From IMG/VR virus record IMGVR_UViG_3300020577_010882, positions 225-64,224 of that record: DNA of 64,000 nt. One strand, 5' to 3'. This document shows, one piece after another, positions 9,001 through 12,577 of this stretch. Each line of letters begins with the position of its first letter. Within the stretch, counting starts at the first letter, position 1. The stretch is from a virus (Duplodnaviria; Caudoviricetes). The notes below the pieces were generated by a model. The model did no database searches, was not told the origin of the DNA, and saw only the letters and a list, made by a program, of their open reading frames with translations. Made by a program: the position numbers and the translations under genes.

Positions 9001-9656
9001 TACGCATGCCGTGGAACGACGAGCACGGCTCCCCCGTCTTCCTCGACATCCGCCGCTGGATCCCGGGCGGAGACCTGATCGACGTGAACGGATCGCACTC
9101 GGCGATCCCGCTGCCGCAGTGGCTCTCGCTCGGCGGCTTCTTCGGCCTCGGCATGGAGATGATGTCGAACAAGAACTCCTTCACCGGCAAGGAAATCTGG
9201 AAGGAGTCCGACACCATCGCCGAGCGTACGTCGAAGGTGTTCGATCACCTGTTCCGCTTTATGGCGCCGAACGTGCCGCTCCCGAACCCGCTCGGGTACG
9301 CTCTCGACGCAGCGGTGGTGGAGAACGGCATGCTCCAGACCTACTCGTGGCGCGCGATCCAAGCCGCGGACACGGGCGTCACCGACGACTTCGGCCGCGA
9401 GAAGAGCCTGCCGCAGTCGGTGGCGTCGGCGGTGGGCGTGAAGCTCTCGGCCTACCCGGAAGATCAGCTTCGCCGCAACCTCATCCAGAAGCGCGACGCG
9501 GAACTGCGCGACAACTCCGAGACCACCAGCCGCTACAAGCGCGAGGCGCGACGCGGCGGCCTCACGATGGAGGAACTGGAGGCACGGCTCAAGAAGCAGA
9601 ACGACAAGGCGCAGGAGATCCGCGAGCGCTACGGCAAGCGGATCAGCCAGCCCTGA
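3..9656 (+). CDS. Giant polyvalent virion/ejection protein, 5'-partial: zincin peptidase (HELLH..EE, ~880-1400), ART-PolyVal-like x2 (~1910-2440, ~5160-5700), HhH-GPD-like domain (~2570-3050), third ART-like domain (~4225-4600), inorganic pyrophosphatase (~4720-5140), GNAT-like domain (~6250-6600), helical C-terminal region
   Basis: Frame is open from nt 3 to TGA at 9656 (>3200 codons). Motifs: VIGHELLH; WFGDSKVVDAEGRPLVVYHGT twice; GNYEKAHV...HYGYIKRT...EHIDVFV...DEYKVLVG. Confidence 0.9.
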   Translation, partial: APGTTIDKASGAPLANLDAIWQTATSRPAVVSTIEQAIAQSTGISRAEKVDAIMLAREMEADPKAILDFKQFVAARPALLQTVEKVAAENAKLGGTTAATSAPAATPAATPADASSAAPAPATPAAAALADLPPSPTTDKAAAFEAAERAAQQQRDREIDALRRDAVETRYEQELARAEAAGSGLQPGHQTTMEAALGGAKILGKDAGSLSDGSLKLLSEKGAPEARAAARAEIARREEQRRAADAMANEGGRPLYSQAAAFERLRAQHSRADGVTGEESVPMNLVPRERAPRWAQRAADLLAGAFGKQVVFVDADPKKYEGSMFMDDPGTVYVNVNANRSVRRVIGHELLHTLRRTNPDVYKRLLKAVSRAVDPKAAGERYSKVYADYVSRFGTEKGVDLQVEEMVADIFGDQMDNPRFWYDVYRAMGEGRAKSLMRAIGVALDAMRMKLRVGAKGGYDTAAFVTNIEAVRKASASAYAEWTKDGSPALTAAEAAALESRADGAAPGPSSDGLKKFAERLKGEVKEKTAGIHADVAIFRAQGRYKYDKGDIVMGSNGRSWEIVTQYATHEGSSRGPIVPAYILKSTDGEVTRTSVMADPWKNFRGERRPGFHETSSLLVRAGTKESLDSKPGRRDVTETPEFKKWFGDSKVVDAEGRPLVVYHGTHSDITAFSKRFAGSNTPNSGMYGTAPGYFTASASHASGYAEGPTHRQPMHEGANVMPVYLSIKNPFVVDSGVLDGAVRKLAGRNGDALVAQLKDAGYDGVIVSNTRDQQGDAGKFFEVIPFSSEQIKSATGNRGTFDAGDDNILHSRPSFSKFAKGLPRDEEGNIVGSGGRDTRSLWNLVQRLEADAREGERGRAWYRESAKEILKAFNGDVRSAERFAQLIAITSAHTEVRPNFTAAEKALIQFAAGEPIHVGVKMVDQKVNDLLYFGVEWEGRKTNNFYNTIMAEITGQKSGETVVDMHHARDIVGHTSPSPAEYAFIDSVFKHVAKRMRWPAHETQAAIWVATKARYLLDKYKARGWHSSKSEAAKREMALAEAGIHYGDIARARWSMFGPDVKSFESSEETQARGVKVTAEVKPTTKLDIGKAVAHLSMTKAQEYQKDALRSVFGAKGVDAFFEAMGLDRTQYRVVEGAGGYEGMTAPNAVVTLNVDADTAERVAKAWMYIFRQDAVPFFRADAKLIDDANAAQGVLIEFKDKLTNPKLREAFDALRAEVDPGIGFTRVSEREIAVINFRGDDGKPFLMDDAAFYNRLDDALDRGVLAAKIASRSRFGAETRYPYHDWQEDNSGQGLLPAAAGGSPAVQQRLRRWADVFGRFAEGRAEDARRAGGELRSAPAVDRGRDSGGTQEDARAGVRDGRAVDGRGDSARAGGQAEGQRLAEGYAGNAAEGTPRISVRPRHPDAVTVVGYHYGADTNELHGERFGTGAPSAESRGVAIKKRIYFYPQRTPGAMPESERVVTGEHVSRAVLTNLYDTWVDPVIAKATKDLHGGAFNFNTFERLVVEAGYDGYISRGRPPDGGVVLLNVDRVPVEPLGKRADAAKIVERMDSRPAVVDDVAVAARGHAATEGQRSAGNYEKAHVKVGGLDISIENRAGTKRRPEWPTLNAHYGYIKRTEDRTGEHIDVFVKPGTPLDYKGDVFVVDTNTQSNRPDEYKVLVGWDDLRAAKKDFLANYTKDWNGLHAITRFDSMDEFKAWLANGDTKRRVEGQALDSRSTVTSTPEFKRWFGDSKVVDAEGRPLVVYHGTGDDFGAFKVWSHFGSTGAANERAMLPSNERRNANVMPVYLSIKNPLRIKDVDADPSRFIAAWAGGKMPELGPLPKELSVSGRRERYAAWNNSTDSLVRFLEERGYDGLVYQNEIEDAGHESWVAFRPSQVKSVFNRGSFDAGSDNALDSRARAVDVPMSVDDLTDLDFTDPNSDFVSNPSPFEAQYLPFDDELGNEGPYTITWAQQPRNGTWISETADGRYQIVPDNGYYMAEVDGREVSSHRTRRAAIQALNQRLQKDIAAGTVRDPFAAKLVTLQYERDAVERVVSGWERIAKIPSIFRNRFSVSKKLADVIQAFDKQNRLVSVDVAQADQEGMQYEIKFKSMPGDDKTISAFLHVSHVHKEAYLDISAADKGTQAGSFIYPAVFNWVKNNDYKLVPDPNGLSNINTYRRTEQMISATLKLGGTDFMRPHPDQRLYGWVDDVKSRNDHEKNVAIMLITSMRSVQEKIPKVKDYEFDFDRMRFTKNGYVVPAKEIQAFATERVRYNYGMGPATIARAIITQSLIDNPQALKEMNASKALPSILTKPEEVAPLALYSQPAGAEGDRPGAAKRAALGAARAAVTAGRPVGMALDLTNRVMDLAAQIPGRVVLPITSRAYDRVTAWNRDFWKGGEIRQQIAHGMVADYGLPEPYLERRDDREIEIQKVLRRSKEVVDRIASLDHAESRVAYLWMNEKPDTAEEQRLLAMLPAESRATLAEMKQMIDDLGQEAVRLGLLSQESYERNHMAYLHRSYKKYEVENPQAVASSARAKALRAETYRGRGLRDDVSLERVPGAQRGDHYVRLEKRKGGTAEKLGMLERVVYIAAGHPIPPAYAGWRNDGVWEARFTDREGSVGMWRDLTPDERQRLGEIEEVRYAFARTMIAQIQDIETAKFLAWVGANYSVADEAAVAEKGGVVADTSDSMVTLKTYADNEWVQVPGTVAQGTRLYKYGAIQSRYIPGHIWNDIRATINSRSSSNVWRLYDELLKGWKVAKTALSPAVHTNNVMSNFILADLAEVSHKNLAQALRTMIDAEAGNETARAVLTRYLDSGAELGTPALHELRREVIEPILAKLQGEESETLASLSLIQALALAARGNVRQALAGASNWKMSKAAKWPFEVMMSAYGLEDSVFRFAKWLKETDGGKDDRTAAKEARAAFLDYRINAPWIQALRRGPFPFLAFTYRVVPILADAAANKPWKLMKYAAAGYAVNALAYAMLGLGGSDEDKERALLPDEKQGVTILGTPRLVRMPWNDEHGSPVFLDIRRWIPGGDLIDVNGSHSAIPLPQWLSLGGFFGLGMEMMSNKNSFTGKEIWKESDTIAERTSKVFDHLFRFMAPNVPLPNPLGYALDAAVVENGMLQTYSWRAIQAADTGVTDDFGREKSLPQSVASAVGVKLSAYPEDQLRRNLIQKRDAELRDNSETTSRYKREARRGGLTMEELEARLKKQNDKAQEIRERYGKRISQP
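1920..2195 (+). repeat. ART cassette 1 flanks, identical to ART cassette 2 flanks
   Basis: 1938-1987 = 5193-5242 (50 nt); 1920-1934 = 5175-5189 (15 nt); 2156-2195 = 5351-5390 (40 nt). Confidence 0.95.
3859..4155 (+). CDS. 98-aa gene overprinted in the +1 frame inside the giant gene
   Basis: GAGGT at 3845-3849 lies 9 nt before ATG 3859. Codons are phage-typical (aag/gac/gag/ttc/ccg), while the host frame becomes A-ending and R/G/A/D-rich. Confidence 0.75.
   Translation: MTGKKTTRGKDSFPPLREDHPLYNSGFVVGQTFSGASPKDVQKMRDAQAANSAPPRQLTEDEIQAELKKMREQGFGTVEQSMAEEILRGLEGKPKGNA
5175..5390 (+). repeat. ART cassette 2 flanks, identical to ART cassette 1 flanks
   Basis: Same blocks as 1920-2195; the enclosed cores are 108 nt vs 168 nt and dissimilar. 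Confidence 0.95.
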
Positions 9657-9972
9657 GCGCGCGGTCGAGGAAGAAGAGCCTCACCTCCTCGACCGTCAGC
9701 GGAGCGGGAGGGAGCGTCATCGCTCCGGCGACGTGCGGGTCTCTGAGGCGCCACGCCTCGAAGATGTTGGCGGCGAGAATGCCGTCCATCATCTTCTTCT
9801 GCTCTTGCGACAAGAACGCCACGCGCGCGACGTGATTGTTGGCGCGCACGAACAGGGAGTCGCCGCTAATGCAATACTTGAGCGACGCCTCGTTGTCGTC
9901 GCGCATCTGGTTGATCCTGATGTCGTACTCCGCCGCGGTGAGCGCGGCCGACGATGCCCCGAAGTCCATCAC
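9643..9972 (-). CDS. hypothetical protein, convergent with the giant gene
   Basis: Protein-like ORF, 4-nt overlap with 9969..10235. Confidence 0.6.
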   Translation of the reverse strand: MMDFGASSAALTAAEYDIRINQMRDDNEASLKYCISGDSLFVRANNHVARVAFLSQEQKKMMDGILAANIFEAWRLRDPHVAGAMTLPPAPLTVEEVRLFFLDRALRAG

Positions 9973-10235
9973 CCACCTCCCATCGCTGCGTCCAGCAGAA
10001 TCAAGTCCACCTCCTCACGCTTCAGGGTTCTCCTGAGCGTCACCCACGATTCGTAGAGCAACTGCAACTGCGCCTCGGACAGGCTCTCGTGCCGCACGTG
10101 CGCGACCCTGAACATAGTGCCGCCCGGCTCCCACGGAGCCGCCGAGCGCGGCACGATGACCCACACCGTCCCGCCGGCAAGCCACGGCTTGTTGGCGCCA
10201 TTCATCGCGGTCGCTCGTTGTTTCCCGAGGTTCAC
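9969..10235 (-). CDS. hypothetical protein next to attP
   Basis: Protein-like ORF coupled to 9643..9972; start could be 10205. Confidence 0.55.
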   Translation of the reverse strand: MNLGKQRATAMNGANKPWLAGGTVWVIVPRSAAPWEPGGTMFRVAHVRHESLSEAQLQLLYESWVTLRRTLKREEVDLILLDAAMGGG

Positions 10236-10446
10236 AATTCCAAGTCTGTCCCTAGCGAACGACGATCACGATCTCGTGTAGGATTGTTAACTAGATCACT
10301 CTCAACTCGTTGATCTACTGAGCTTCGTCGCGAAATTCCAACTGCTTCGTAATCAGTAGGTCCGCGGTTCGAGTCCGCGCACCAGCACCAAATTCAACGA
10401 CTTAGGTCGTCGGAGATGGTTCACAAATCGAGGCGGCTCCACAATT
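10229..10446 (+). repeat. Candidate integrase arm-type sites flanking the core
   Basis: GGTTCACAATT 10229-10239, GGTTCACAAAT 10418-10428, TCCACAATT 10438-10446. Confidence 0.55.
10339..10390 (+). other. attP core: 3' half of tRNA-Thr(CGT), from the anticodon arm to CCA
   Basis: ACTGC-TTCGTAA-TCAGT-AGGT-CCGCG-GTTCGAGT-CCGCG-CACCAGC-A-CCA; the expected 5' GCTGGTG and D-arm are absent; integrase ~0.9 kb away; phage genes on both sides. Confidence 0.85.
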
Positions 10447-10998
10447 ATCGCTGTCTTCTACGCAATGCGGGTTGGGTATCCGTCCGATGCTTAACGCGTG
10501 CATCACGTACGAAGTCACGGCGCGCGATCTCGCGAACCACTCGCCGCTGACGCGATGATGTTCAAGTGCTCGGTGCGCGGATTGTTCGTCCATCATGGAG
10601 CCGCGCACCGCGCCGATCAGGATGATGGGCAGCGGAGATCCGATTTGTAGGCTGGAGATCCTCTTCTTCAGGTGTCGGCTAGAAGATGAGAATCCGATCT
10701 TGATGTTCCCCCGCTTCCCCGCCCTGACGAAGTAGACCAGCGGCCCGTCGATATTGACGGCCACCGCCTCGCTGTGCAGCACGGACGAGTGACGCGCAGG
10801 GTGCTTCTCGTCGAGTTCCCTCCACTTCATCCATACCGAACGCCTGTCGCTTTCGGGGCCGAGCGGGACCGTGAGAGATTCTCCAGTTGCAGCGCGTCGA
10901 GCGCGCTCGTGCGCTGACGTTGGCTGCCAATAGCACCTTCCGTTCTTCACGCGAACGCCGGGAGGCAGGTGGTGATTCTTCGTGCGAGGGCGTCCCAT
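10402..10998 (-). CDS. Integrase N-terminal (arm-binding-like) domain fused to a GIY-YIG T5orf172/MUG113-like nuclease domain
   Basis: N-terminus matches the integrase N-terminus at 32/47 residues; C-terminus VYFVRAG..KIGFS..RISSLQ..EQSAHRAL..RVSGEWF. Confidence 0.8.
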   Translation of the reverse strand: MGRPRTKNHHLPPGVRVKNGRCYWQPTSAHERARRAATGESLTVPLGPESDRRSVWMKWRELDEKHPARHSSVLHSEAVAVNIDGPLVYFVRAGKRGNIKIGFSSSSRHLKKRISSLQIGSPLPIILIGAVRGSMMDEQSAHRALEHHRVSGEWFARSRAVTSYVMHALSIGRIPNPHCVEDSDNCGAASICEPSPTT

Positions 10999-11000
10999 CG

Positions 11001-11276
11001 CTACCCCCAAATCCTCTCCGCCACCGACAGCAGCGTGTCGCTCGAATCGGCATCCACTCCGTAGTCGTCGTGCAGCTTGCGAAGATCCTCGGCGGTGCAC
11101 GCGAAGTCGTCGAGCGTGGACTCGTCGGTGATGAGCGCGCCGCCGATCCCGAACACGTCCTCCAGTAGGTCTTGCAGTCGCGCGTCGTACTTGTCGATCT
11201 TGTCCTGCGACGCGATGTACAGCGTGCTGCCGGCGAACGGACCGTCCTTCAGCTTTCCGATTTTCGTGTTGCTCAC
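11001..11276 (-). CDS. small acidic protein (91 aa)
   Basis: GTG overlaps the integrase stop (GTGA); about 19 D/E vs 9 K/R. Confidence 0.7.
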   Translation of the reverse strand: MSNTKIGKLKDGPFAGSTLYIASQDKIDKYDARLQDLLEDVFGIGGALITDESTLDDFACTAEDLRKLHDDYGVDADSSDTLLSVAERIWG

Positions 11277-12391
11277 TTCAGCGGCCTCATCTTCTCCTCG
11301 CGCCGCGCGTACACGCGCCGCGCCACGTCCGGGTCGTTGCCGAGGAACCCGGCCCCGTCCTCTCCAGCATCCACTGCATCGTCGTGCGCCTTCGAGCGCA
11401 GATCGTGGAAGTGCAGATCCTCGATCACGAGCGCGATCTCCTCGCGCGCGAGCAGCGCGTTCGTCTCGCGCTTCAGCTTCGCCCACCGCTTCTCGAACGC
11501 GTCGAGCGTGATCGCCTCTCCACGACGCGTTGGGAAAACGTACGCCGCCCGGTCGAGGCGCTCGACGTTCGCGCCGGGCAGGGCAGCCGCCTCGGCCACG
11601 ATCCGCCGCAGGCCCGGCGTCCACTCCCACACCTGCCGCCGGCCGCGCTTCGCCTGCCGCAGGTGCACGCCGTCCGCTTGCATGGCGCTCCGCTGGAGCA
11701 GGCGCATGTCCGACACCCGCCACCCGCAGATCCCCTCGAAGTCCATCATCAGGCCCATCAGGGCGTCGCCGGCTGCGTCCGCCACGGCGCGCAGGCACTC
11801 GACCTCCCACGGCAGCGGGGCGCGCGTGCGCGGCTCCTCCGCGTTCCGGGCGACCCCGAGGCAGGGGTTGTACGTGGTGAGGCCCCGGCGGATGGCGTGC
11901 GCGAACGCCGCCGACATCACCGACAGGTGGCGGTTCGCCGCCACCGGGCTGTCGGCCTCGGCCACGAAGCGCTGGAGATCGACGACCCCGAGCGCCTGCC
12001 CGCGGCTCGCCTCGAACTCCGTCTTCCCGTAGCGGCAACTCCCGAACCGCTTGCGGAGAACGGTGATCGAGCGCTCGTACTCGGCGACGGTCTTCGCCGC
12101 GCGCGGTCGGCCGTTGGGCTTCTTCGCGAGGCCGTGCGTCTCGAACTCGGCGAGGATCTCCTCAACCGTTCCGGGAGAGGAGGGCGCGGGGTCGGCGTAG
12201 CCGGCGACCTCGGCCCATCGCTTCCTTGCCTCGGTGCCGGCGGGGCCGAGCGGCACGGTGCACGCCAAGCCCTTCGCGCGCCGCTCGGCGCGCTCGCGCG
12301 CGGACGTGGGCTGCCAGTACCAGCGGCCGTCCTTCTCGCGGACGCCGGGCGGCAGGTGCATCCCGGTCTTGCGCTTCCTCCCCACGGGCAT
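11273..12391 (-). CDS. int: tyrosine integrase
   Basis: GWRVSDM (R), FHDLRSK (HxxR), LGN..RRVY (Y); adjacent to attP. Confidence 0.93.
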   Translation of the reverse strand: MPVGRKRKTGMHLPPGVREKDGRWYWQPTSARERAERRAKGLACTVPLGPAGTEARKRWAEVAGYADPAPSSPGTVEEILAEFETHGLAKKPNGRPRAAKTVAEYERSITVLRKRFGSCRYGKTEFEASRGQALGVVDLQRFVAEADSPVAANRHLSVMSAAFAHAIRRGLTTYNPCLGVARNAEEPRTRAPLPWEVECLRAVADAAGDALMGLMMDFEGICGWRVSDMRLLQRSAMQADGVHLRQAKRGRRQVWEWTPGLRRIVAEAAALPGANVERLDRAAYVFPTRRGEAITLDAFEKRWAKLKRETNALLAREEIALVIEDLHFHDLRSKAHDDAVDAGEDGAGFLGNDPDVARRVYARREEKMRPLK

Positions 12392-12394
12392 AGC

Positions 12395-12577
12395 TTACCC
12401 CTTCTCCACGTCGTGCACCCCCGAGTTCCACCCGGTGACGAAGGCCACGCGCGCGTACGCCACGACGCGCCTCCAGTCACGGTGGGAGAAGCTCTCCGGC
12501 ATGCGCGGCGGGTTCGCCTTCACGAACAGCGTGAAGGCTTTGGCTCGACGCCGTTGCTCGGCGCGCGTGTGTTTCAC
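12395..12577 (-). CDS. hypothetical protein
   Basis: GTGA-coupled basic 60-aa ORF upstream of int. Confidence 0.5.
   Translation of the reverse strand: MKHTRAEQRRRAKAFTLFVKANPPRMPESFSHRDWRRVVAYARVAFVTGWNSGVHDVEKG

What the first reader, a model, noticed from the sequence alone, without database searches (positions are those of the whole stretch)
10402..12391. Integrase arm-binding domain duplicated and fused to a GIY-YIG nuclease, encoded at attP
The 198-aa ORF starts GRPRTKNHHLPPGVRVKNGRCYWQPTSAHERARRAATGESLTVPLGP, 32/47 identical to the integrase N-terminus, and ends in a T5orf172/MUG113-type GIY-YIG domain. It lies in the int operon and its 3' end runs over the candidate arm sites. In lambda-type integrases the N-domain binds arm sites (established). 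This protein may therefore direct a nuclease or competitor to att arms, acting as a directionality factor (no Xis recognised), a weapon against related phages' attP, or a homing element. I do not know this architecture from described systems.
Basis: partly seen in the sequence, partly recalled or inferred. Interest (0 to 1): 0.82.

Follow-up and report, generated by a model that had tools for sequence, protein, structure and literature searches.

The report
Integrase arm-domain fused to nuclease
A temperate phage of Burkholderiales encodes, between its integrase gene and its attachment site, a small protein that joins a copy of the integrase's arm-site DNA-binding domain to a T5orf172/MUG113 (GIY-YIG-type) nuclease; the same two-gene cassette recurs in at least eight diverged phage lineages and has not been described in the papers I could search.

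Summary
ORF 10998..10402 (-, 198 aa) shares 32/48 N-terminal residues with the integrase encoded 0.3 kb upstream. It carries a MUG113/T5orf172 domain above Pfam's cut-off. It ends 11 nt from a 44-nt exact copy of the 3' end of tRNA-Thr(CGU), the attP core.

The motif TYCACAAWT occurs three times in 64 kb, all at attP. Two copies lie inside the ORF's unconserved tail.

It is not a remnant. Eight further lineages, in two integrase subfamilies, have int followed by this fusion and then attP. In six of them the int stop overlaps the fusion start.

The DNA-reading hairpin stays almost identical to the cognate integrase's while synonymous sites are saturated. The residue matching Odn's catalytic Glu is invariant.

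Best reading (about 0.45): an arm-site-directed endonuclease, selfish (homing-like) or aimed at cognate rivals. It parallels ICP1 Odn, a T5orf172 nuclease with a borrowed DNA-binding domain. A classical excisionase role is unlikely, because the gene is translationally coupled downstream of int. A non-classical recombination cofactor remains possible.

Binding, cleavage and expression are untested. I rate it a new variant of a known kind.

The parts
11273..12391 (-). Tyrosine integrase (372 aa, P0002). Its N-terminal ~60 residues form the lambda-type arm-binding domain.
   Evidence: PHROG_1 integrase at E 1e-22; Pfam Phage_integrase at E 1.2e-4, below the gathering score. Int homologues at 31-53% identity in L008, L010, L011, L012 and L030.
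11001..11276 (-). orf91, an orphan acidic 91-aa ORF wedged between int and the fusion gene. It is coupled at both ends (GTGA overlap with the int stop; its stop lies 2 nt before the fusion ATG). It is absent from all relatives.
   Evidence: GC3 0.87. No Pfam or PHROG hit. No homologue other than itself.
10831..10998 (-). Fusion protein residues 1-56: a paralogue of the Int arm-binding domain (beta-beta-alpha-beta-alpha).
   Evidence: 32/48 identity to Int, E 5e-18. dS about 1.0 and dN 0.32; hairpin dN 0.12. In the fold search of the domain alone, the top three of 48,161 chains are the HPI Int arm-binding domain (3jtz, Z 4.4) and lambda Int residues 1-64 on P'2 DNA (2wcc and 1z1b, Z 4.3).
10744..10830 (-). 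Fusion protein residues 57-85: end of helix 2 plus a low-confidence linker. The linker is missing in the short family members P0007 and P0008.
   Evidence: pLDDT 53-62 over residues 61-80. Alignment.
10471..10743 (-). Fusion protein residues 86-176: MUG113/T5orf172 (GIY-YIG clan) nuclease domain. Y89, K100-I-G102, R113, E138, H142 and G-E153-W-F are conserved.
   Evidence: Pfam PF13455 above cut-off. These residues are 90% or more conserved in 76 sequences. E138 aligns with Odn E180. pLDDT 91-97. Fold hits to Slx1, HIGLE, PD-T4-3, I-TevI and UvrC GIY-YIG domains at Z 3.8-5.1.
10402..10470 (-). Fusion protein residues 177-198 and the stop codon: an unconserved tail whose codons overlie the int-proximal arm sites.
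   Evidence: GC3 0.43 against 0.76 for the nuclease domain. No conservation in the alignments.
10420..10446 (+). Int-proximal arm: two direct arm-type repeats, TTCACAAAT (10420-10428) and TCCACAATT (10438-10446).
   Evidence: The same motif (AATTGTGRA in the int sense) lies at the same place in L004, L003, L010 and L011. L008 has the variant TTCCCAAWT.
10347..10390 (+). attP core: an exact copy of the last 44 nt of tRNA-Thr(CGU).
   Evidence: Exact matches in 10 Burkholderiales/Betaproteobacteria MAG contigs, each inside a 76-nt tRNA-Thr(cgt). Host tRNA contigs overlap this stretch in metagenome runs.
10229..10261 (+). Distal arm: arm-type repeat TTCACAATT (10231-10239) plus the conserved box CCCTAGCGAA (10250-10259).
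   Evidence: The box-plus-repeat pair recurs in L003, L004 and L008.

Best explanation
The gene encodes an arm-site-directed endonuclease.

How it is built. The N-terminal ~56 residues are an old paralogue of the neighbouring integrase's arm-binding domain. Selection keeps its DNA-reading hairpin the same as the integrase's. This domain should therefore dock on the TYCACAAWT arm-type repeats of attP, attL, attR and attP-like DNA. A flexible linker then places a catalytically intact T5orf172/MUG113 (GIY-YIG-clan) domain on nearby DNA, where it would nick or cut.

What it most likely does. The cassette behaves like a free-standing homing or interference nuclease lodged exactly between the int stop codon and the proximal arm sites. 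It uses a target that cognate phages cannot mutate without losing integration. It would cut the int-attP junction of relatives that have the same integrase type but lack the gene. The outcome would be copying of the gene into them, or exclusion of them as rivals for the same attB. Its own genome would be spared because its own coding sequence replaces the cleavage site.

Shown here: the domain homologies, conservation of the cassette, conservation of the catalytic residues, the specificity-matching selection, and the location of the arm sites.

Inferred: DNA binding, cleavage, the target, self-immunity, and the biological role.
For: 1. Domain identity is supported for both halves.
- N-domain.
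- Nuclease domain.
- The Glu whose mutation kills Odn (E180A, PMC8263062) aligns with E138, which is invariant in the family.

2. The family is conserved. Thirteen or more 50%-identity clusters contain both domains.

3. Synteny is conserved. The order int, fusion, arm sites, tRNA-derived core is seen in L004, L005-7, L008/9, the P0007 contigs, L012-14, L026/27 and L028.

4. The hairpin matches the cognate Int in two very different Int subfamilies.
- Window: 15/18 identical by my count of the two translations.
- L028: 13/14 identical.
- Synonymous sites are saturated (dS about 1.0 and above 4) while hairpin dN is 0.12.
- This points to long-term selection for the same DNA specificity rather than recent conversion.

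5. The distribution is sporadic, as for selfish or accessory genes. Int relatives L010 (49% identity), L011 (41%) and L030 (53%, a 66-kb phage) lack the fusion. L011 runs from the int stop through 25 nt to the arm sites and then the tRNA core. None of 401 Burkholderiales species genomes holds it.

6. Composition is atypical: GC3 is 0.70 against 0.93 for int. The N-domains of fusions diverge faster than those of Ints.

7. There is precedent. T5orf172 proteins are homing endonucleases in ICP1 and other phages, built as one DNA-binding terminus plus one nuclease terminus (10.1101/2023.03.23.533998). Odn is a T5orf172 nuclease whose N-domain is copied from the RepA of its target and cuts at RepA's iterons (PMC8263062).
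Against: - No binding, cleavage or expression data exist. No RNA run holds the stretch.
- The phage's own attP carries the presumed binding sites, so self-immunity has to be assumed.
- Fusion and Int divergences run roughly in parallel: window against L008 is 34% and 41%, against L012 35% and 31%. This looks like vertical co-inheritance. No near-identical copy was found in a diverged background, so recent mobility is not shown.
- Translational coupling to int in six lineages could equally mean a working partnership with Int.
- In three lineages (L008, L012, L026) the fusion hairpin is only weakly similar to the cognate Int.
- The N-domain tree is unresolved.
- Fold-search Z scores are low (3.8-5.1), so they carry weight only through rank and consistency.
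Confidence: 0.45

Rival explanations
1. The protein is a recombination cofactor of a new kind. It would be made in fixed ratio with Int, occupy some of the arm sites and act on the attP architecture. It might nick an arm to relax or hinge the DNA, or block or order Int protomers. Either way it would tune the efficiency or direction of integration and excision. It would not be a classical Xis.
For: - The int stop overlaps the fusion start (TGATG or ATGA) in L004, L005-7, L008/9, the P0007 contigs, L026/27 and L028. In the window the coupling runs through orf91.
- The hairpin is kept identical to the cognate Int under purifying selection.
- The gene always lies at attP, with arm sites in or next to its 3' end.
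- No Xis-like protein was recognised among the 10 neighbouring ORFs scanned in the window.
- Fusion and Int divergence are roughly parallel.
Against: - Int relatives L010, L011 and L030 do without it.
- Expression coupled to int cannot by itself give directionality.
- Relatives carry a separate Zn-ribbon gene abutting int that could be the RDF.
- A fully conserved nuclease active site is not needed for an architectural role.
- No known RDF or accessory factor has this design. This last point rests on my own knowledge of RDF families and the negative literature searches.
Confidence: 0.27
2. The protein is a prophage-encoded or early-expressed weapon that is not selfishly mobile. The nuclease would destroy incoming or co-resident elements that carry the same arm-site type. 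These could be related phages competing for the tRNA-Thr attB, or satellites that exploit this integrase. The logic is that of Odn. This overlaps with the best explanation. It differs in that the benefit goes to the phage, not to the gene.
For: - The Odn precedent, and repeated independent Odn-like captures (PMC8263062; 10.1101/2023.03.23.533998).
- The slot between int and attP holds variable cargo in this phage group: orf91 here and other genes in L030.
- L012-14 have an AT-rich repeat-bearing region directly upstream of the fusion gene that could be its own promoter.
- The catalytic residues are conserved.
Against: - In most lineages the gene has no promoter of its own and rides on int, which is normally silent in lysogens. 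That int is silent is general knowledge and was not tested here.
- The resident attL and attR would carry the same sites.
- No target element has been identified.
Confidence: 0.15
3. The protein is a domesticated, non-cleaving DNA-binding protein, as CapR or I-TevI are when they act as repressors. It would sit on the arm sites to regulate transcription across attP, for example read-through from int into orf88/orf109.
For: - T5orf172-related proteins have been domesticated as repressors (CapR, 10.1101/2020.11.28.402263).
- I-TevI autorepression is cited.
- The two proximal arm sites coincide with the only sigma-70-like match in the region.
- orf88 starts at the distal arm site.
Against: - All catalytic-motif residues are invariant across the family, which is not expected after loss of nuclease function.
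- By the passages read, it is CapR's DNA-binding domain, a Zn-finger, that is related to the HEGs' DNA-binding domains. No passage read shows that CapR keeps a nuclease domain.
- The promoter match is a weak consensus hit.
Confidence: 0.08
4. The ORF is a non-functional remnant of a partial int duplication that happens to be fused in frame to a decaying nuclease gene.
For: - Lower GC3 than the neighbouring genes.
- The pipeline that annotated the record called only the C-terminal 142 aa.
Against: - The same two-domain protein with an intact frame occurs in eight or more diverged lineages.
- dN/dS is about 0.3 overall and about 0.16 in the hairpin.
- The active-site residues are invariant.
- The identical sequence turns up in runs of three independent studies.
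Confidence: 0.02

Closest known systems
Odn (ICP1 gp88), origin-directed nuclease (Barth et al. 2021, PMC8263062)
   Same: - It has a C-terminal T5orf172-type GIY-YIG nuclease.
- Its N-terminal DNA-binding domain is a copy of the DNA-binding domain of another protein that binds repeated sites (RepA_N and the ori iterons).
- Its catalytic Glu (E180) aligns with E138 here.
- The borrowed domain shows 42% identity to its source in Odn, against 67% here.
   Different: - Odn's domain is borrowed from an enemy element, the PLE satellite, and it cuts that enemy's origin.
- Here the domain is a paralogue of the phage's own integrase, and the presumed sites are in the phage's own attP.
- This gene is tied to int and attP in many lineages.
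- Activity is untested here.
- Profile-profile similarity of the nuclease domains is modest (hhalign probability 75%, E 2.4e-5).
Free-standing T5orf172 / GIY-YIG homing endonucleases of phages (ICP1 HEGs, T4 Seg proteins, I-TevI; 10.1101/2023.03.23.533998)
   Same: - One DNA-binding terminus, a linker and one nuclease terminus.
- Inserted tightly between conserved genes or sites.
- Sporadic distribution.
- Atypical composition.
- A target that is a functionally constrained sequence next to the insertion point.
   Different: - The usual DNA-binding domains are Zn-fingers (CapR, DUF723, DUF4397) or HTH modules. An integrase arm-binding domain was not among those listed.
- Domain order is reversed relative to I-TevI.
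- No evidence of recent mobility was found here.
Lambda Int N-terminal arm-binding domain (PDB 2wcc, 1z1b) and HPI Int arm-binding domain (3jtz)
   Same: - Best structural matches of the N-domain (Z 4.3-4.4, ranks 1-3 of 48,161).
- The same position at the extreme N-terminus in the paralogous integrase.
- Arm-type repeats flank the core on both sides.
   Different: - Here the domain is detached from the recombinase and attached to a nuclease.
- An extra helix lies between strands 2 and 3.
- No Pfam arm-binding model matches at E up to 1.
HNH-AP2 homing endonucleases (cited in 10.1101/2023.03.23.533998)
   Same: A homing nuclease that uses a small three-stranded-sheet DNA-binding domain. From my own knowledge, the AP2 fold is related to the integrase arm-binding fold. 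An AP2 domain appears at rank 9.
   Different: - The nuclease family differs (HNH).
- The AP2 domain is C-terminal.
- There is no link to an integrase gene or to attP.
Excisionases / recombination directionality factors (lambda Xis and relatives)
   Same: A small protein encoded beside int that presumably binds the att arms.
   Different: - It lies downstream of int and is coupled to it, rather than upstream and separable.
- It is not a winged-helix protein.
- It carries a nuclease domain.
- It shares the integrase's own DNA-binding domain.

Membership tests
MUG113 / T5orf172 (GIY-YIG clan) | Match to the family HMM above the curated threshold | tested here: met
   PF13455 at 28.0 bits against a cut-off of 22.3, E 3.4e-6, residues 100-156. 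PHROG 8130, 4284 and 8604 domain hits, and phrog_17889 'endonuclease'.
MUG113 / T5orf172 (GIY-YIG clan) | Conserved motif residues: Tyr in strand 1, K-I-G in strand 2, Arg in helix 1, and the catalytic Glu equivalent to Odn E180 | tested here: met
   Y89, K100, G102, R113, E138 and H142 are invariant in 11 fusion proteins and 90% or more conserved in 76 sequences. hhalign places Odn E180 on E138.
MUG113 / T5orf172 (GIY-YIG clan) | GIY-YIG alpha/beta fold | tested here: inconclusive
   The model has pLDDT 91-97 over the domain. The best chains are GIY-YIG domains (Slx1 Z 5.1, HIGLE 4.5, PD-T4-3 4.5, I-TevI 3.9, UvrC 3.8), but all Z scores are below 6 and unrelated folds are interleaved.
MUG113 / T5orf172 (GIY-YIG clan) | Metal-dependent endonuclease activity | not testable with these tools
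   Needs purified protein and an E138A control.
Lambda-type integrase arm-binding domain | Homology to the N-terminal domain of a tyrosine integrase that has arm-type sites | tested here: met
   32/48 identity to the cognate Int, E 5e-18. 55-60% identity to the N-termini of Ints P0057, P0076 and P0063. A second subfamily pair occurs in L028.
Lambda-type integrase arm-binding domain | Match to a Pfam arm-binding model (Arm-DNA-bind families) | tested here: not met
   No Pfam family at E up to 1 for the isolated N-domain of either the fusion or the Int. No PDB sequence hit to lambda Int.
Lambda-type integrase arm-binding domain | Three-stranded sheet plus helix fold, as in lambda Int residues 1-64 | tested here: met
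   For the domain folded alone (pLDDT 82), ranks 1-3 of 48,161 chains are 3jtz, 2wcc and 1z1b (Z 4.3-4.4; rmsd 2.5-4.1 over 47-55 residues). Lambda Int entries have the best TM scores in Foldseek. Z is low because the domain is small.
Lambda-type integrase arm-binding domain | Sequence-specific binding to arm-type repeats | not testable with these tools
   Candidate repeats are at 10231, 10420 and 10438. An EMSA is needed.
Free-standing homing endonuclease | Presence/absence polymorphism at an otherwise homologous locus | tested here: met
   It is present between int and the arm sites in eight lineages plus the window. It is absent in L010, L011 and L030. The comparisons are between distant relatives (41-53% Int identity), not near-isogenic genomes.
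Free-standing homing endonuclease | Evidence of horizontal mobility: a gene tree discordant with its flanks, or near-identical copies in diverged backgrounds | tested here: inconclusive
   Fusion and Int identities are roughly parallel. The N-domain tree is unresolved. No close relatives were found in the phage, viral-contig or genome collections.
Free-standing homing endonuclease | Cleavage of the gene-less allele near the insertion point, with the own allele immune | not testable with these tools
   Requires cleavage assays on L011-like and window-like junctions.
Excisionase / RDF | Expression separable from Int, so that it is absent during integration | tested here: not met
   The gene lies downstream of int with overlapping stop and start in six lineages, and is coupled through orf91 here. 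This is an inference from gene layout. Expression was not measured.
Excisionase / RDF | Membership of a known Xis/RDF sequence family | tested here: not met
   No Xis, HTH_17 or AlpA-type hit in Pfam or PHROGs for this protein.

The most novel reading that the evidence does not exclude
The int-fusion pair would be a functional two-protein recombination machine. The fusion would be an arm-site-directed nickase that the integrase needs or exploits. It might relax or hinge attP, or mark the excised circle so that it cannot re-integrate. That would be a nuclease-based way of controlling the efficiency or direction of tyrosine-recombinase site-specific recombination, and a new class of accessory factor.
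Probability: 0.2. Interest if true: 0.85.

Novelty: new variant of a known kind. Interest (0 to 1): 0.62.

Why it matters
If the protein binds arm sites and cuts, it would be a second, independent case of a T5orf172 nuclease retargeted by copying another protein's DNA-binding domain, after Odn. It would be the first such case aimed at a site-specific recombination site. That would make attP arms a battleground or homing target between temperate phages that share an integrase type and an attB.

It would also give a selective reason for the rapid diversification of arm sites and integrase N-domains.

If instead the protein works with Int, it would add a nuclease to the set of recombination accessory factors.

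Either way the cassette is compact (about 200 aa, with defined 9-bp sites and a 44-bp core), so it is directly testable. The conserved pairing of hairpin sequence with arm-site motif across lineages (TTCACAAWT, TTCCCAAWT, TGACAATT) offers a small natural data set on the recognition code of arm-binding domains.

Tried and rejected
**Searches that found nothing**
- Megablast of the region against 50,697 phage records: no match.
- tblastn of the fusion against phages: only MUG113-domain hits, none with the N-domain.
- The search for related loci with family alignments in viral contigs and genome contigs: nothing, or alignments too diverged.
- Search of 401 Burkholderiales species genomes and 5 tRNA-matching MAGs: no full-length member.
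- Word-based search with the N-domain alone (residues 1-66): nothing scored.

**Structure and sequence comparisons that gave little**
- Foldseek on the whole model and on the N-domain: no significant E-values. VIA-align ranks were used instead.
- PDB sequence search with the family profile: only a spurious MutH hit.
- N-domain phylogeny of fusions against Ints: unresolved, so it cannot say whether there was a single ancient fusion or repeated capture.

**orf91**
- No Pfam, PHROG, atlas or homologue hit.
- Complex prediction of orf91 with the fusion, testing the idea that orf91 is an inhibitor or immunity protein: 'no answer', score 0.00. This is not evidence either way.

**Expression and population variants**
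- No RNA holder is listed for the stretch.
- Contigs laid from four runs showed the same sequence in three studies. They showed no variant lacking the gene and no attL or attR junction. Holes in that cover prove nothing.

**Other**
- The promoter/terminator scan gave only a weak sigma-70-like match that coincides with the two proximal arm sites.
- The longer GTG-initiated 232-aa reading of the ORF was rejected. Homologues start at MGRPR/MSRPR, and an SD-like GGGGG precedes the ATG at 10998.
- The remnant or pseudogene reading was rejected on conservation.
Full report
**1. What is there**

The window is a complete 64,224-bp IMG/VR virus record with terminal repeats. Three tightly packed genes on the minus strand run into the attachment site.
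- int, 12391..11273, 372 aa. PHROG_1 integrase at E 1e-22; Pfam Phage_integrase is weak.
- orf91, 11276..11001. Its GTG start overlaps the int stop.
- The gene in question, 10998..10402, 198 aa. Its ATG lies 2 nt after the orf91 stop and is preceded by a GGGGG Shine-Dalgarno-like run.

Eleven nucleotides beyond its stop codon, window 10347-10390 (+) is an exact copy of the last 44 nt of tRNA-Thr(CGU). It is identical to that tRNA in 10 Burkholderiales/Betaproteobacteria MAG contigs. This is the attP core, and it points to a Burkholderiales host.

The 9-mer TYCACAAWT occurs three times in 64 kb (0.28 expected), all on the same strand.
- One copy is at 10231, on the far side of the core.
- Two copies, 18 nt apart, are at 10420 and 10438, on the int side.
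- The latter two fall in codons 185-193 of the ORF. This is a tail that is not conserved in homologues and has GC3 of 0.43.

I defined the pattern after seeing the repeats. However, the same motif (AATTGTGRA in the int sense) flanks attP in the relatives L003, L004, L010 and L011. A one-base variant (TTCCCAAWT) does so in L008.

**2. The two domains**

*N-domain.* Residues 1-48 match Int residues 3-50 at 32/48, E 5e-18. The record holds only these two copies.

AlphaFold2 with a 76-row alignment gives a confident two-domain model, mean pLDDT 84.8.
- Residues 1-65 form a beta-beta-alpha-beta-alpha unit.
- A floppy linker covers roughly residues 66-85.
- Residues 86-175 form an alpha/beta domain with pLDDT 91-97.

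Folded alone, the N-domain's three best matches among 48,161 PDB representatives are all arm-binding domains.
- The arm-type binding domain of HPI integrase (3jtz, Z 4.4).
- Lambda Int residues 1-64 bound to P'2 DNA (2wcc, Z 4.3).
- Lambda Int (1z1b, Z 4.3).

Z is low, as expected for 66 residues. The argument rests on rank and consistency. Pfam's arm-binding models do not match.

*C-domain.* It matches Pfam MUG113 above the curated cut-off. Its best structural neighbours are GIY-YIG domains: Slx1, HIGLE, PD-T4-3, I-TevI and UvrC at Z 3.8-5.1.

Y89, K100-I-G102, R113, E138, H142 and G-E153-W-F are invariant in the fusion family and at least 90% conserved across 76 MUG113 proteins. A profile alignment to ICP1 Odn puts Odn E180 on E138. 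The E180A change in Odn was used as the nuclease-dead control (PMC8263062). The active site therefore looks intact.

**3. It is a family with fixed synteny, not a one-off**

An exhaustive HMMER search of 1.84 billion representatives found full-length two-domain relatives in many 50%-identity clusters.
- P0004, P0005, P0007, P0008, P0009, P0011, P0021 and P0027.
- A second subtype: P0042, P0044 and P0117.

Every context I could fetch has the same order: integrase, fusion, arm repeats, core.
- L004
- L005-7
- L008/9
- the two P0007 contigs
- L012-14
- L026/27
- L028

The core is a tRNA 3' fragment in L008, L012, L026 and L028.

In six lineages the int stop and the fusion start overlap (TGATG or ATGA). 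In the window, orf91 is wedged between the two genes but is coupled at both ends. In L012 a 49-aa ORF and an AT-rich region intervene.

L003 is the exception. It has the fusion and the arm repeats but no integrase in the 1.1 kb upstream.

**4. Selection keeps the borrowed domain matched to the integrase**

| Pair | Hairpin identity | dS | dN (whole domain) | dN (hairpin) |
|---|---|---|---|---|
| Window | 15/18 (my count from the translations) | about 1.0 | 0.32 | 0.12 |
| L028 | 13/14 | saturated | 0.36 | 0.12 |

L028 belongs to a quite different Int subfamily, whose true N-terminus lies upstream of the called start. Its hairpin PYYRVIRGRG[FY]WK matches between Int and fusion.

So the paralogues are old, and the similarity is maintained by purifying selection rather than by recent conversion. 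In L008, L012 and L026 the match is weaker. A tree of the 70-column domain is unresolved. I therefore cannot say whether there was one ancient fusion or several captures.

**5. Distribution**

Several Int relatives lack the gene.
- L011 (41% Int identity) runs from the int stop through 25 nt to the arm sites and then the tRNA core.
- L010 (49%) is a prophage end next to a holB-like host gene, with the arm sites about 110 nt after int.
- L030 (53%, a 66-kb phage) carries other small genes after int.

No member was found in 401 Burkholderiales species genomes or in the isolate-phage database.

In the window the gene has lower GC3 (0.70) than int (0.93) and its other neighbours.

Contigs from runs of three independent studies carry identical pieces of int, orf91 and the fusion. 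One 299-nt contig spans the attP form. No variant without the gene was seen.

**6. How it most likely works**

Both halves point to a protein that docks on arm-type repeats and cuts or nicks DNA within reach of its linker. Three lines of published work frame this.
- T5orf172 proteins are the commonest homing endonucleases of ICP1-like phages. They are built as one DNA-binding terminus plus one nuclease terminus (10.1101/2023.03.23.533998).
- Odn is a T5orf172 nuclease that copied the RepA_N domain of its target and cuts at RepA's iterons (PMC8263062).
- CapR, a PLE-encoded repressor of ICP1 capsid genes, is related to a DNA-binding domain of those T5orf172 HEGs (10.1101/2020.11.28.402263).

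The present gene applies the Odn principle to a recombination site.

The features below fit a homing-like or rival-directed nuclease best.
- A position exactly between the int stop and the proximal arm sites.
- Sporadic distribution.
- Atypical composition.
- Faster divergence than Int.
- An intact active site.

The target would be the int-attP junction of cognate elements that lack the gene. Arm sites are a target that such elements cannot change without losing integration. The phage's own copy would escape because its coding sequence replaces the DNA next to the arm sites.

I give this reading about 0.45. Its weak points are these.
- Self-immunity is assumed.
- No sign of recent mobility was found.
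- Divergence roughly parallels that of Int.
- Translational coupling to int could equally mean partnership.

**7. Rivals**

*A non-classical recombination cofactor (about 0.27).* Coupling and specificity matching explain this well. It is less well explained by the gene's absence from close Int relatives and by the need for a full nuclease site.

A classical Xis is unlikely. The gene is downstream of int and should be made during integration too. Relatives also have a separate Zn-ribbon gene abutting the int start that could be the RDF. The window lacks that gene and has a 183-nt gap there. No Xis-like hit was found among 10 neighbouring ORFs.

*A phage-beneficial weapon (about 0.15).* This differs from the best reading only in who benefits.

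*A domesticated repressor (about 0.08).* The invariant catalytic residues argue against it.

*A remnant.* Excluded by the conservation.

**8. Novelty**

Full-text searches found no description of this fusion. The terms tried were:
- 'arm-binding domain' with 'GIY-YIG';
- 'MUG113' with 'integrase';
- 'T5orf172';
- arm-type, integrase, homing endonuclease and AP2.

The survey of T5orf172 DNA-binding domains by Barth et al. lists Zn-fingers and RepA_N, not integrase domains. Because the design principle is known, I class it as a new variant of a known kind. It is a real, conserved and directly testable feature. Nothing about binding, cleavage or expression is shown yet.

I did not test that and nothing here depends on it.

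Noticed in passing
window 11001-11276 (-): orf91 is an acidic 91-aa orphan ORF inserted between int and the fusion gene. It is coupled at both ends (GTGA overlap with the int stop; its stop lies 2 nt before the fusion ATG). GC3 is 0.87, so it is probably coding. It has no homologue, Pfam, PHROG or atlas hit, and it is absent from all relatives' cassettes.
   Followed up: partly
window 10250-10259 (+); also L003 ~1810, L004 ~850, L008 ~6738: A conserved box TCGCTAG(G/C)G (CCCTAGCGAA on the window + strand) lies about 10 nt from the distal arm-type repeat in four diverged phages. It is a candidate binding site for an accessory factor such as IHF or an Xis-like protein.
   Followed up: no
L008 4642-4845; L012 459-629; L026 72-260: Relatives carry a 56-67-aa Zn-ribbon gene (Pfam PF22811 hit, CxxC...CxxC) abutting the int start. 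It is a candidate excisionase of an unusual type. The window has no such gene and has a 183-nt gap at 12392-12573.
   Followed up: partly
window 9643-10235 (-): Two small genes, orf88 and orf109 (GC3 0.83 and 0.89, no family hits), start at the distal arm site and run away from attP. In the free phage they lie downstream of the int operon. In a prophage they would sit at the opposite end, next to host DNA. L004 has the same layout, with a gene starting at its distal arm site.
   Followed up: no
window 10402-10830 (-): The annotation pipeline behind the record called this gene from Met57 (142 aa, P0003), which drops the arm-binding domain. Automated annotation will therefore hide this architecture in some records.
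   Followed up: yes
L028 2883-3060: The integrase of L028 is called 343 aa from an internal Met. The open frame extends upstream to MAKLRIPYYRVIRGRGFWK..., which restores its arm-binding hairpin.
   Followed up: yes
L003 1-1136 and 1626-1850: One family member (P0005, on a 39-kb contig) has four or five arm-type repeats downstream but no integrase in the 1.1 kb upstream. The rest of the contig could not be fetched.
   Followed up: partly
P0007, P0008 (L005-L007): Short family members (145-154 aa) lack helix 2 and the linker. In them, strand 3 of the arm-binding domain runs almost directly into the first strand of the nuclease domain, so the reach of the nuclease differs between lineages.
   Followed up: no
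L012 2040-2138: An AT-rich region lies directly upstream of the fusion gene in L012-14. It contains the tandem repeat TATATATCCCTATATATCCCTAT and GTGCAT-type repeats. It may be an independent promoter or operator, unlike the coupled layout elsewhere.
   Followed up: no
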